The position numbers are program-made. This document shows, one piece after another, positions 12,001-15,000 of a stretch of DNA of 64,000 bases (positions within the stretch are counted from its first letter, which is position 1; every line of letters starts with the position of its first letter). This DNA is from Escherichia coli (GTDB lineage: Bacteria; Pseudomonadota; Gammaproteobacteria; Enterobacterales; Enterobacteriaceae): the NCBI RefSeq assembly GCF_048403405.1, contig NZ_CP183129.1, one strand, 5' to 3'.

Positions 12001-15000
12001 AATATCTGAATTAGCCGCCTGTAATGGGCGGTTTTTCTTTTCCATCAGGCCACCTTCCCGCGGCGTTCTGCCAGCCAGTTGTGAATCTCAACCGCATCAA
12101 ACGCAGTTATTTTTTCTCCCAGCTTTACCGGACGTGGTAGTGAACCGTTTCTTACTTTACGGTCGATGGTGGATACACTAACGCCCAGCAATTCAGCCAG
12201 GCGGAAGCGTCTGATATAGCCTTTTGTAGGAATAGTGTCGGTGTTCATGCTTCCCGTAACCTCTTAGCGATAGTTGTTGCTTCGTTACGGGAGGAAGTAT
12301 CTGTACATATATGAACAATAAAAAGGCACAGTAATGATACTGTGCCTGAATAGTTAGCTACTCTACCCCTTACCGTTGGCGGCAGCACGTAAGTGTCTCA
12401 AAATCACATCTTCATTTGTGATTGCTAACGGTGGAATTTCGTCTTTATGAGCCACTATGCAATCCCGCCACTTCTCAGGGCTTATTTCTTTCTTTTTGCC
12501 ACGGCATTCATCAGGATACTTTGACAAAAGATATATTGCAGATTTGAAAAGTTTTTCCCTGTTTTCAGCATGTCTCTCGGCATTATGGTTGCTATTTTTT
12601 ATTTCAGGTATTAGTTCCTGTTCTACCGCCATTTCGTATCGTTTTTTGCTCTTAGCTGCGTCAAAACTTCCATTAACCTTTGCGTCATGAAGGTATTCTA
12701 AATCAGCCTTTGTTATATAAATGTTTTTATCTGACAGGCTACTCAGGTGAATTTGGGAACTTTGCATTTTGAATTTATATAGATCACAATCAAATGTTGC
12801 TTCAAGTCGCACATATGGTTCTCCACATTCTTGTGAATGATAATGTCGTGTTGTTCTACCGCGTACACGCAACAATCCACATGCAATTGATTTTCTTACA
12901 ATAAAAGAGTTTTTGCCAATTTGTTCAAAAACATTTTTATTGTCGCTGTCTTCAACTGTCAGTGGTTTATGTGCATAAAATAGCTCATAAGCACCGCTTT
13001 CAGATGCTGGGATATAAACTTCGTTGCTTGCGCTGGTAATAAGAAAAGGAAATGTAAACCTTACTTCTTCTGGGTACATAAGTAATAAATCAGTTATAAA
13101 ATTAGCATCTTTTTTGAAGTGGATGGTGGCATCAGATTCAATGAAATCAAGAAAGTCAGCATAGACATAAAAGTCTATATGTAGTCTATCTTTCCAATGC
13201 CATATATCATCAATTTCACAATTTAATAATTTTGATGCTCGCTCTATCGTGCAGTAGTCCAAAGGTGGAATACCTGATTCCTGCCATAAATTTCTATGCA
13301 CCACTGTTGTTTCATGAGAGTCGTTCATTGCGTCACCTTTTACGCTGCGCCTTATTTTGTGATTGAGCCAGGCGGTAAGGCTTCCCGCTTTTCGCCCCGT
13401 CGAGCTAGGCTCAATCTATTCAGTTAGTTCGCCCTTCTGAGAGGCGTTACGTTGTAGTCTTTTCCGCTTTCCAGTGCCACCAGCAGATCAGCCCACTGTG
13501 CCAGTGCTGCTTTACGCTCATCAAAATACTGATGGCGGTTATAAATCCCCTCTACGCCCTTAATGCGATGATTGAGGCATCGTTCCGCCACGACAGGATC
13601 AACACCCAACGCTGCTAAATGAGTACGTGCGGTGCGTCGGAAGTCGTGAATCGTGAAATTAGGCACATCCGGCATTTCGGCGCGAACCTTAGCCAGTGCT
13701 ACGGGCAAAGTGCTTTCCTGAATATGTGGGATCATTCTGTTTTGCATCTTCCTGGCTGGAAGCACCCATGCGCTATTACATGAAAAGGTGTGTAGCTCTC
13801 TCAACCATTCAACGGCTGGGGAAGGTAGAGGTATATCAATAGGGTCTCCGTTTTTGCTGCGTTCTTCCGGCAAATGCCATACCGCACCATCTAAATCAAA
13901 CTCTTCCCATCGTGCGGCGCATAACTCCATCTTACGAACGCATAGTGCCAGCAATAGCTTAAATGTCAGTTCGTTCTGGCGGCTGAATCCTTTTGCGGTG
14001 CGCATAGCCTCGAATAGCCTGATAAGCTCATCGCGAGTTAGCCAACGGTCGCGGGAAACCTCTTTACCACCAGCATCAGATACTTCAAACGCTGAACAAG
14101 GGTTTATCTCCAGAGCGTGGCGTTTTATCCCGTAGTCAAAGATACGGCGTGTCCAGCGTAATACATCTGTTGCTATCGTTGGTGCTCCTCGGTCAACGAT
14201 ACCTTTCAACATGTCGTCAATGTGGCGTGGCTTAACGTCCTCTACCTTCATATGCCCAATGCAGGGGTTAATATCCTTATCAATTCTCCGGCGAAGGATA
14301 TCGGGATGTTTCCATCTCGGAAGTATCTGGCGCTCGAAGTATTCGGAGGCCAGATCTGAAACACGCATGGCGTTTTTCTCAGCCTCCATTTTTGCCAGTG
14401 CTTCAGCTTTTCGTTCCTGTTTCTCTGCTGCTACGTCATAGCCAAGAGCAACTCTGGCTGACAGCTCTTTTGCTGTTTCTCTGGCTTTTGATAGTGACAG
14501 TTCGGAGTAAGAGCCTATAACCATAGCCCGCTGCTTTCCTGCGAGCTTATAGCGGAATCGCCAGAACGGGGCTGTGTAGTTTTTGGGGTAGCAAATATAA
14601 AGGCCGTTGCCGTCTGCCTTGCCATCAAATCTGTCTCCCGCCTTTATCCATGCGCGGATCTGCATATCTGTGAGTTTTGGCATTGCGAATACCTGAATAT
14701 CGAATATGGGTGTGTACATAAAGCAATGTACATGAAAGTCATTATGTACACCTCTATGTACACGCATATTGTGCGCTTTATTGCGTCGTTATGATAGCTC
14801 ATGATAACAAAAAAGCCCGACATTTCGCGGGCTTTGTGGTTTTTTGCTGCTTGGTGATTTTTACTGATAGCTTATTCGATATTCTGGATCTGCTCGCGCA
14901 TCTGCTCAATCAACACTTTCAGCTCGATGGCAGAATTCGTCACTTCGGCATTGATAGATTTCGACGCAAGAGTGTTCGACTCGCGGTTGAACTCCTGCAT

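What the first reader, a model, noticed from the sequence alone, without database searches (positions are those of the whole stretch)
14712..14762. Cluster of TGTACA repeats in the int upstream region, with a fifth copy upstream of alpA
Four copies of (A/G)TGTACA occur within 51 bp between the int start and the yicC terminator, and one more at 12302-12307 upstream of alpA. The palindromic hexamer clustered at the element boundary and at a regulator promoter suggests binding sites for the integrase arm domain, the excisionase or a repressor.
Basis: seen in the sequence. Interest (0 to 1): 0.35.

Follow-up and report, generated by a model that had tools for sequence, protein, structure and literature searches.

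The report
Integrase arm-type sites of a yicC island
The four TGTACA copies are real and non-random: they are four of six copies of a 10-base motif (TTATGTACAC) that flank the attachment site of a satellite-type island inserted at the end of the E. coli yicC gene, and comparison of about 60 related islands indicates they are docking ("arm-type") sites for the N-terminal domain of the island's own integrase, an ordinary kind of feature not previously described for this island family.

Summary
Observation confirmed. TGTACA occurs at 14713, 14727, 14745 and 14757, and no cluster of 4 within 50 bp appeared in 2000 shuffles. The window total (11) is at chance level.

The hexamer is not the real unit. 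The unit is an asymmetric 10-mer, TTATGTACAC: two copies inverted (R1, R2) and two direct (R3, R4). They lie 119-162 bp from a 12-bp crossover core at the yicC stop codon (14872-14883). Two more perfect copies sit 80 and 92 bp beyond the core at the island's far end, outside the window.

The layout (two tandem plus one or two inverted copies on the int side; a tandem pair at every far end found) recurs in about 60 related islands at yicC, from E. coli to Betaproteobacteria. The motif varies, and it tracks a hypervariable beta-hairpin (residues 31-42) of the integrase arm-binding domain. It does not track the AlpA protein.

A second repeat (TATCA) between core and arm sites does track AlpA type.

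The alpA-upstream TGTACA is not conserved and is best read as chance.

Verdict: arm-type Int sites of a P4/CP4-57-like integrase in a PICI-like island, probably overlapping the int promoter. A new member of a known kind; binding is inferred, not shown.

The parts
14712..14721 (-). R1: arm-type site, perfect TTATGTACAC on the - strand. Centred about 162 bp from the core and 29-38 bp upstream of the int ATG.
   Evidence: Positionally conserved in nearly all relatives with Int at least 60% identical.
14726..14735 (-). R2: weakest arm-type site, TCATGTACAT on the - strand (8/10). It contains the palindrome ATGTACAT.
   Evidence: This position is often lost in relatives, giving three-site versions.
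14742..14751 (+). R3: arm-type site, perfect TTATGTACAC.
   Evidence: Forms a tandem pair with R4 at 12-bp spacing, conserved in relatives.
14754..14763 (+). R4: arm-type site, CTATGTACAC (9/10), centred about 119 bp from the core.
14772..14779 (.). Conserved block TGCGCTTT (AAAGCGCA on the int strand) next to R4. It is shared by elements of all Int and AlpA classes. Candidate host-factor site (IHF-like) or -10 region of the int promoter; unresolved.
14792..14806 (-). Two TATCA direct repeats (14792-96 and 14802-06), 10 bp apart. Candidate AlpA/RDF sites on the P arm.
   Evidence: at least 3 TATCA in 7 of 20000 shuffles; the repeat class follows the AlpA class.
14812..14835 (-). Intrinsic terminator serving yicC, supplied by the island.
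   Evidence: hairpin plus T run. (homology with island-free genomes ends at 14870-72).
14854..14869 (-). AATCA (14854-58) and TATCA (14865-69) repeats next to the core. Candidate AlpA/RDF sites.
14872..14883 (.). Common core TTATTCGATATT, the last three codons plus stop of yicC (N-I-E-stop). The crossover region of attR.
   Evidence: in SH21PTE31, attB, attL and attR share exactly this 12-mer; a copy lies at the left end of the window's island.
13424..14683 (-). int: tyrosine integrase with Arm-DNA-bind_3, Phage_int_M and Phage_integrase domains.
12045..12248 (-). alpA-like HTH gene (Phage_AlpA). Regulator or RDF candidate, not the binder of the TGTACA motif.

Best explanation
The TGTACA cluster is the P-arm set of arm-type binding sites in the attachment region of a PICI-like island, and the sites are bound by the island's own heterobivalent tyrosine integrase.

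Shown by sequence:
- The island sits at the 3' end of yicC, with a 12-bp common core (TTAYTCGATRTT) at the stop codon.
- The 10-mer TTATGTACAC occurs four times between int and the core. Two copies are inverted and two are direct, centred at -162, -148, -131 and -119 from the core centre.
- It occurs twice more as a tandem pair, at +80 and +92, beyond the core at the other island end.
- After excision all six copies would therefore lie in one attP of roughly 260 bp.

Inferred:
- The N-terminal Arm-DNA-bind_3 domain of Int binds these 10-mers through its beta-hairpin (residues about 28-47) while the C-terminal domains hold the core. Int molecules would then bridge arms and core into an intasome, as in lambda.
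- Different subsets of the six sites probably serve integration and excision.
- The only space for an int promoter, between the island-borne terminator and the ATG, is filled by these sites and the TATCA repeats. Int, and AlpA at the TATCA repeats, probably also regulate int transcription, as shown for KplE1 IntS/TorI and phage P4 Int/Vis.
For: (1) Non-random and confined to the att regions.
(2) Core and both junctions defined from an occupied genome with a clean left end versus the empty K-12 site. Homology with 4900+ island-free genomes ends at the yicC stop.
(3) Motif on both arms: window strain, SH21PTE31, O157:H7 F6667. Also in distant islands whose far end lies within reach: Aeromonas, Zobellella, Pantoea, Aromatoleum, Xenorhabdus.
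(4) Int has an arm-binding domain. Pfam PF13356, E 7e-20. Sequence hits to 3JU0 and 3JTZ. An AF2 model with pLDDT 92 matches 3JTZ, 3RMP and 3JU0 at TM 0.67-0.69 normalised to the query and 0.72-0.89 normalised to the target.
(5) Same architecture in about 60 loci from many genera, with the motif varying by element.
(6) Motif class follows Int hairpin residues 31/33/40/42. C-P-F goes with T[TA]A[TA]GTACAC in 10/10. R-R goes with TTG[GT]GTACAC in 21/24. [SC]-R-[VI] goes with AGGTGTAC in 11 loci. C-R-K goes with TTTGGTACA in 6/6. A non-Arg residue at 42 goes with a GCAC or TTAC core in 5/6.
(7) The partial Mantel test, controlling for catalytic-domain distance, gave r = 0.26, p = 2e-4.
(8) Window and SH21 Int differ at 24 residues, 14 of them within residues 15-51. 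Residues 31-40 form the most variable 10-residue stretch of the protein.
(9) Double dissociation from AlpA.
(10) Precedent for arm-type and RDF sites overlapping an int promoter with negative autoregulation: PMC2951348, which also cites Piazzolla 2006 for P4.
Against: - No binding, recombination or transcription data exist for this element. Everything about who binds is comparative inference.
- The int 5' end and all six sites are contiguous in the excised circle (about 450 bp). Part of the protein-motif association could therefore be co-inheritance in one recombination tract rather than co-adaptation.
- The partial Mantel correlation is modest (0.26), and the motif also correlates with catalytic-domain distance.
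- No convincing sigma-70 promoter was found at a conserved position, so the autoregulation step is unsupported by sequence.
- R2 matches only 8/10 and may be non-functional.
- The left end of the window's own island has a 1-bp core mismatch and an IS66 next to it, so this copy may no longer be mobile.
Confidence: 0.85

Rival explanations
1. The TGTACA repeats are binding sites of the AlpA-like protein, acting as excisionase/RDF or as activator of int and alpA.
For: AlpA-family proteins include RDFs such as P4 Vis (recalled knowledge). alpA is required for excision of the related PICI EcCIMP1 (PMC11773190). One motif-like copy lies 61 bp upstream of alpA.
Against: Window and SH21PTE31 AlpA are 66/67 identical, yet their motifs differ: TTATGTACAC versus TTGGGTACAC. 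One AlpA class (YIRRFR...) goes with three different GTAC-motif classes. Another class (YMRP.QVM) goes with two. A different repeat (TATCA, ACTCCG or TCTCA), confined to the P arm, does follow the AlpA class. The motif lies on both arms, which is unusual for RDF sites. The alpA-upstream copy is absent from 40 of 43 relatives, including same-class ones.
Confidence: 0.04
2. The inverted copies exist to form a hairpin in the int leader RNA, or a cruciform in DNA, that controls int expression. Protein binding would be secondary.
For: The - strand 14684-14811 folds with R4/R3 paired to R1/R2, at -34 kcal/mol and z = -3.3. Concerted motif changes would look like compensatory changes.
Against: Any set of inverted copies of one motif is self-complementary by construction. 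Many relatives have only three sites, leaving one partner unpaired. The far-end tandem pair has no inverted partner nearby. A hairpin does not explain the association with Int hairpin residues. No promoter upstream of R4 is established.
Confidence: 0.05
3. The repeats are operators for another element-encoded or host repressor of int, for example an unrecognised PICI repressor. Int would not contact them.
For: They lie in the presumptive int promoter region. The other island ORFs (143 aa, 321 aa, AntA-like) were not tested for covariation.
Against: A copy pair 80-92 bp beyond the core at the far end has no promoter logic but fits an attP arm. A host factor cannot explain element-specific motif classes within one species. 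Int carries a domain whose solved homologues are arm-site binders, and its hairpin is the most variable segment and tracks the motif. The 321-aa ORF is replaced by unrelated genes in relatives that keep the sites.
Confidence: 0.05
4. Chance clustering in AT-rich intergenic DNA.
For: The overall TGTACA count in the window equals expectation.
Against: 0 of 2000 shuffles give 4 copies within 50 bp. The 9-mer is found only at the two island ends. Position and number are conserved across genera.
Confidence: 0.01

Closest known systems
Lambda Int arm-type sites (P1, P2, P'1-P'3) in attP
   Same: A heterobivalent integrase. Short asymmetric repeats unrelated to the core lie on both arms, about 50-160 bp from the crossover, partly as tandem copies 10-12 bp apart. 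A second set of direct repeats, for an accessory or RDF protein, lies on one arm between core and arm sites.
   Different: The arm-binding fold is different: the DUF4102/Arm-DNA-bind_3 type with an extra strand and helix. The P arm holds two orientations (2 inverted plus 2 direct). int is transcribed away from attP starting right next to the sites. The target is the 3' end of a protein gene. Lambda and HK022 share arm specificity and differ in core specificity (recalled knowledge); here the reverse holds, with the same core and diversified arms.
KplE1 (CPS-53) IntS/TorI module and phage P4 Int/Vis
   Same: The int gene abuts the att region. Arm-type Int sites and RDF sites occupy the int promoter region. 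In those systems Int and the RDF both repress int (PMC2951348; Piazzolla 2006 as cited there). P4 Int is of the same P4/CP4-57-like integrase type, and Vis is an AlpA-type protein.
   Different: Different motifs (KplE1 P' sites share TAAA) and different targets (argW, leuX tRNA genes). No promoter mapping or binding data exist for the yicC elements. Whether AlpA acts here as RDF, activator or both is unknown.
HPI and HAI7 island integrases (PDB 3JTZ, 3RMP, 3JU0)
   Same: Same arm-binding domain fold (Foldseek probability 1.0, rmsd 1.5-2.0 A). 3RMP is titled 'recognition of attP substrates by P4-like integrases'.
   Different: Only 27-29% identity in the domain. Their arm-site sequences could not be retrieved here, so no motif comparison was made.
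Gram-negative PICIs (EcCICFT073, EcCIEDL933, EcCIMP1) and 'reference PICIs integrated into yicC'
   Same: An int-alpA head and a backbone of antirepressor, Ash and P4-type primase plus PerC (PMC11773190). yicC is a recorded PICI target (bioRxiv 10.1101/2022.07.18.500453). A 15,957-bp yicC element was recovered from phage DNA of ciprofloxacin-induced O157:H7 (PMC4587872).
   Different: Those papers do not describe arm-type sites. This copy also carries P22-like ejection-protein genes and an IS66, and helper dependence is untested.

Membership tests
Arm-type sites of a heterobivalent tyrosine integrase | The integrase has a separate N-terminal arm-DNA-binding domain | tested here: met
   PF13356, E 6.9e-20. 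phmmer hits to 3JU0 and 3JTZ. The AF2 model matches 3JTZ, 3RMP and 3JU0.
Arm-type sites of a heterobivalent tyrosine integrase | A repeated sequence distinct from the core, on both arms of attP, tens to about 160 bp from the crossover | tested here: met
   Sites at -162, -148, -131, -119, +80 and +92 relative to the 12-bp core. Same layout in distant relatives.
Arm-type sites of a heterobivalent tyrosine integrase | Site sequence matches the specificity of the cognate Int N-domain | tested here: met
   Motif class follows hairpin residues 31/33/40/42 and does not follow AlpA. The evidence is comparative, and linkage is a caveat.
Arm-type sites of a heterobivalent tyrosine integrase | Direct binding by Int, and a requirement for recombination | not testable with these tools
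   Needs EMSA or footprinting and attP mutagenesis.
P4/CP4-57-like (IntSXT subgroup, DUF4102) integrases | Arm-DNA-bind_3, central and catalytic domain architecture | tested here: met
   Subgroup description in PMC8138268.
RDF (excisionase) binding sites | Phased direct repeats on one arm between the core and the Int arm sites, specific to the cognate RDF | tested here: not met
   For the TGTACA motif: it lies on both arms, in mixed orientation, and is independent of AlpA type. The neighbouring TATCA repeats do meet these criteria by inference.
Self-regulated int promoter embedded in the att region (KplE1/P4 type) | The int promoter overlaps arm-type or RDF sites | tested here: inconclusive
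   Only about 128 bp lie between the terminator and the ATG, and they are filled with sites. No sigma-70 match of at least 9/12 was found. The PWM scan gave no positionally conserved candidate apart from a weak -10-like CAYRAT in the conserved block.
Phage-inducible chromosomal island (Gram-negative PICI) | int-alpA head, primase/replication module, site-specific att, no full set of virion genes | tested here: met
   The backbone resembles that of EcCIMP1 (PMC11773190).
Phage-inducible chromosomal island (Gram-negative PICI) | Induction and packaging by a helper phage | not testable with these tools
   There is only an indirect report, for the O157 yicC element (PMC4587872).

The most novel reading that the evidence does not exclude
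Islands that all target the same 12-bp site at the end of yicC, with nearly identical core-binding and catalytic domains, have repeatedly exchanged or diversified a small cassette. The cassette is the Int beta-hairpin (residues about 30-42) together with its six arm sites, and at least five mutually distinct specificities exist: TTGGGTACAC, TTATGTACAC, TAGGTGTAC, TTTGGTACA and GGGGTGCAC. This would be an orthogonality system: competing satellites sharing one attB could not excise or integrate one another. It would also give a readable recognition code for the DUF4102 arm-binding domain, for example Arg42 with the GTAC core and positions 31/33/40 with the three bases 5' of it.
Probability: 0.35. 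Interest if true: 0.6.

Novelty: new member of a known kind. Interest (0 to 1): 0.4.

Why it matters
The result gives a complete, testable map of the attachment site for a widespread family of satellite-type islands at yicC. These islands are present in 468 of 5426 complete E. coli genomes and in many other genera. The map comprises the core, six Int arm sites, candidate AlpA sites and an island-borne terminator for yicC.

The natural variation pairs five or more motif variants with specific hairpin residues. It could guide re-engineering of the arm specificity of P4-like integrases. It could also help explain how elements that compete for one chromosomal site stay independent.

For annotation, the practical lessons are two. 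The island boundary is the yicC stop codon, not the repeat cluster. The lone TGTACA at alpA should not be read as a regulatory site.

Tried and rejected
- The att core at the repeats themselves. TGTACA-N6-TGTACA looks like a recombinase core, but island-free genomes lose homology only at the yicC stop, 110 bp away. The clean junctions of SH21PTE31 place the core at TTATTCGATGTT.
- tRNA or tmRNA as the target. None in the window.
- A known RNA family over the cluster. None; the only hit is the int-alpA RNA elsewhere, plus a sub-threshold Trp-leader hit on the terminator.
- Promoter search. The consensus scan found none. A PWM scan over 57 loci gave no positionally conserved promoter.
- Phage collection search with 12000-14900. 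No match.
- Literature. Nothing on arm sites of yicC PICIs. PMC2797237, on the HPI/HAI7 arm-domain structures, is not held.
- Script access to locus L002 failed, so L001 was used instead.
- The first automatic motif extraction gave register-shifted consensus sequences and was replaced by a core-anchored version.
- The crossover position inside the 12-mer and the core-type inverted repeats could not be resolved. ATTC/GAAT is spaced 6 bp apart in attP but 8 bp in attB.
- PADLOC on the 321-aa and 143-aa ORFs gave only a weak PDC-S31 hit.
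Full report
OBSERVATION.

The sequence between the int start codon (14683, - strand) and the hairpin at 14812-35 reads GTGTGTACATAAAGCAATGTACATGAAAGTCATTATGTACACCTCTATGTACACGC. TGTACA occurs at 14713, 14727, 14745 and 14757, and once at 12302. The window as a whole has 11 copies, against 12.0 +/- 3.3 in shuffles, so only the clustering is unusual. In 2000 dinucleotide-preserving shuffles the largest cluster within 50 bp was 3, seen twice, and never 4.

The hexamer is not the repeat unit. Read in the right orientation, the copies are:
- R1 = TTATGTACAC (14712-21, - strand)
- R2 = TCATGTACAT (14726-35, - strand)
- R3 = TTATGTACAC (14742-51, + strand)
- R4 = CTATGTACAC (14754-63, + strand)
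.

CONTEXT.

The window is E. coli chromosome. yicC is 14872-15735 (-), followed by rph and pyrE. To the left lies an island:
- int, 13424-14683. Pfam domains: Arm-DNA-bind_3, Phage_int_M, Phage_integrase.
- a low-GC 321-aa ORF
- an AlpA-family gene, 12045-12248
- an AntA-like antirepressor
- an Ash-family protein
- a TOPRIM/DUF927 primase
- P22-type ejection-protein genes
.

The backbone resembles the PICI EcCIMP1 (PMC11773190). yicC is a recorded PICI target (bioRxiv 10.1101/2022.07.18.500453). A 15,957-bp yicC element was recovered from phage DNA prepared from ciprofloxacin-induced O157:H7 cultures (PMC4587872).

WHERE THE ELEMENT ENDS.

Of 5426 complete E. coli genomes, 468 have an int next to yicC. 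In all the others, homology to the window begins at 14870-72, the yicC stop codon. So the 'yicC terminator' is island DNA.

Strain SH21PTE31 has a clean island between dinD and yicC.
- Its left junction is native K-12-type yicC-downstream DNA, then TTATTCGATGTT, then island DNA.
- Its right junction is island DNA, then TTATTCGATGTT, then yicC.
- The empty K-12 site carries the same 12-mer.
.

This 12-mer, the last three codons plus the stop of yicC, is therefore the common core. In the window it is 14872-83 (TTATTCGATATT).

In the genome closest to the window (99.8% identical), a copy of the core with one mismatch lies at the far end of the island. It is followed, 80 and 92 bp further in, by two perfect TTATGTACAC copies 12 bp apart. 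That far end lies outside the window.

In the 28-kb locus spanning the whole island, the 9-mer TATGTACAC occurs five times, all at the two ends. SH21PTE31 and O157:H7 F6667 have the same far-end pair.

Joined as in an excised circle, the attP reads:
far-end pair (+92, +80) - core - TATCA/AATCA - terminator - TATCA x2 - conserved block - R4 (-119), R3 (-131), R2 (-148), R1 (-162) - int.

RELATIVES.

Four E. coli variants keep the four positions, but the motif differs. Three of them have TTGGGTACAC or TTGTGTACAC at every position, including the inverted ones and the far-end pair.

A scan of one genome per species returned 80 loci with Int identity of 29-92%. In nearly all loci with Int at least 60% identical, int abuts the yicC 3' end and the same layout holds. 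The hosts include Enterobacterales, Aeromonas, Vogesella, Dechloromonas and Aromatoleum. The layout is stop codon, terminator, AAAGCGCA block, two tandem copies 12 bp apart, one or two inverted copies, then the ATG.

Where the island is short enough for its far end to be seen, a tandem pair of the locus-specific motif lies about 70-95 bp from a second core copy. Even idiosyncratic variants are reproduced there, such as GTAACC in Aromatoleum and GTACCAA in Zobellella and Pantoea.

WHO BINDS.

The Int N-domain is a homologue of the solved arm-binding domains of the HPI and HAI7 integrases. An AF2 model (pLDDT 92) places strands at residues 28-32 and 40-47, joined by a loop at 33-39. Residues 31-40 are the most variable 10-residue stretch of the whole protein across 57 homologues, and the neighbouring stretches on either side are conserved. 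Window and SH21 Int differ at 24 positions, 14 of them within residues 15-51.

Motif class follows this hairpin:
- C31/P33/F40 goes with T[TA]A[TA]GTACAC (10/10).
- R31/R33 goes with TTG[GT]GTACAC (21/24).
- [SC]31/R33/[VI]40 goes with AGGTGTAC (11 loci).
- C31/R33/K40 goes with TTTGGTACA (6/6).
- Replacement of R42 by K, Q or L goes with a GCAC or TTAC core (5/6).

Class membership cuts across host taxonomy and overall Int similarity. The window (E. coli), Rosenbergiella gaditana and Klebsiella spallanzanii share one class. SH21PTE31, whose Int is 94% identical to the window's, belongs to another.

A partial Mantel test, controlling for catalytic-domain distance, was significant but modest (r = 0.26, p = 2e-4). 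The consensus extraction behind it is noisy.

The AlpA-like protein does not follow the motif. Window and SH21 AlpA are 66/67 identical, and single AlpA classes go with two or three different GTAC-motif classes.

Instead, a second family of short direct repeats on the P arm only follows the AlpA class:
- TATCA in the window, at 14792-96, 14802-06 and 14865-69, plus AATCA at 14854-58. At least 3 TATCA copies arose in 7 of 20000 shuffles.
- ACTCCG x5 in Aeromonas rivuli and Tenebrionibacter.
- TCTCA x4 in Citrobacter, Dickeya and Pantoea.

This double dissociation is the main reason to assign the TGTACA motif to Int. It also makes the TATCA repeats candidate AlpA (RDF or activator) sites.

THE FIFTH COPY.

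ATATGTACAG lies 61 bp upstream of alpA. It is not conserved in the three E. coli variants. A match with at most one mismatch to the locus-specific 9-mer occurs upstream of alpA in only 3 of 43 loci, and in none of the other same-class elements. The expected chance rate is about 0.04 per locus. It is best read as chance.

MECHANISM.

By analogy with lambda and with KplE1 and P4 (PMC2951348), Int would bridge the arm sites and the core to build the intasome. AlpA on the P arm would bias direction and/or activate transcription.

The int promoter has only the 128 bp between the terminator and the ATG available to it. It should therefore overlap these sites, which would give autoregulation. That last step is not supported by sequence. 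No consensus promoter was found, and the PWM scan gave only a weak, recurrent -10-like CAYRAT in the conserved AAAGCGCA block. That block could equally be an IHF-type site.

The int leader can fold R4/R3 onto R1/R2 (z = -3.3). This follows automatically from inverted copies of one motif. It also fails to explain the three-site versions, the far-end pair and the link to the protein.

CAVEATS.

- There are no experimental data for this element.
- In the circular form, int codons 1-50 and all six sites lie within about 450 bp. Co-transfer in one recombination tract therefore contributes to the association.
- The internal uniformity of six copies per element, however, requires selection for one recognition specificity.
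- The window's own island may be immobilised: its far-end core has a 1-bp mismatch, an IS66 sits next to it, and dinD is missing.

VERDICT.

The feature is a new, well-defined example of a known kind. The same-core, different-arm diversification is the one aspect a specialist might find noteworthy.

Noticed in passing
window 13349-13415 (-): Rfam int-alpA RNA (RF02996), 60.6 bits against a gathering score of 35.8, E 2.6e-11. It lies between the int stop codon and the 321-aa ORF. It is a described candidate structured RNA of unknown function.
   Followed up: no
window 14792-14806 and 14854-14869 (- strand): A second repeat family (TATCA x3 plus AATCA) flanks the terminator on the P arm only. 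Its sequence class (TATCA, ACTCCG or TCTCA) follows the AlpA-like protein class across loci, so these are candidate AlpA/RDF sites.
   Followed up: partly
window 14772-14779: The block TGCGCTTT (AAAGCGCA on the int strand) just outside R4 is conserved in almost all loci, whatever the Int or AlpA class. This suggests a host factor site (IHF-like) or the -10 of the int promoter. Unresolved.
   Followed up: partly
window 14812-14835: The terminator serving yicC belongs to the island. The native yicC downstream region and terminator are displaced to the far end of the island, next to dinD in SH21PTE31.
   Followed up: yes
window 1-4050 (-): The PICI-like island carries genes that RefSeq names as phage DNA ejection or injection proteins, plus DUF2824 (P22-type gp14/7/20/16 region). 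This is unusual cargo for a satellite and a possible hint at a P22-like helper; EcCIMP1's helper Kapi1 is a close relative of P22 (PMC11773190).
   Followed up: no
window 12363-13328 (-): A 321-aa ORF in a low-GC patch (0.36) between int and alpA. It has no Pfam hit and only a weak PADLOC PDC-S31 match (E 0.002). Different genes occupy this position in relatives, so it is a variable cargo slot.
   Followed up: partly
L088 6058-6069 versus L006 about 3231-3245 (O157:H7 F6667): In the O157 variant the 12-mer at attL (TTATTCAATGTT) and at attR (TTACTCCACATT) differ at 4 positions, and the shared block is GAATCTGCTC further inside yicC. The yicC C-terminus changes from NIE to NVE. This fits the 'attB drift' reported for yicC PICIs (bioRxiv 10.1101/2022.07.18.500453).
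   Followed up: partly
L002 24946-27830 (NZ_OZ040716.1, left of the window): In the genome closest to the window, dinD is absent. An ISEc23 (IS66 family) lies between yicG and the far-end att copy, and the outer flank of that copy is not native yicC-downstream DNA. This suggests a rearranged or tandem-remnant left end.
   Followed up: partly
Int residue 42 (window codon at about 14558-14560): All loci with a GTAC core have Arg at position 42, with one exception. Loci with Lys, Gln or Leu there have GCAC or TTAC cores (5 of 6). This points to a candidate base-contacting residue.
   Followed up: partly
L074, L075, L085 (Int 32-41% identical): More distant integrases show the same principle with unrelated motifs upstream of int: GGGTATCA, ATGGTGGGCA and GGGGGTAT, each repeated 3-5 times.
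   Followed up: no
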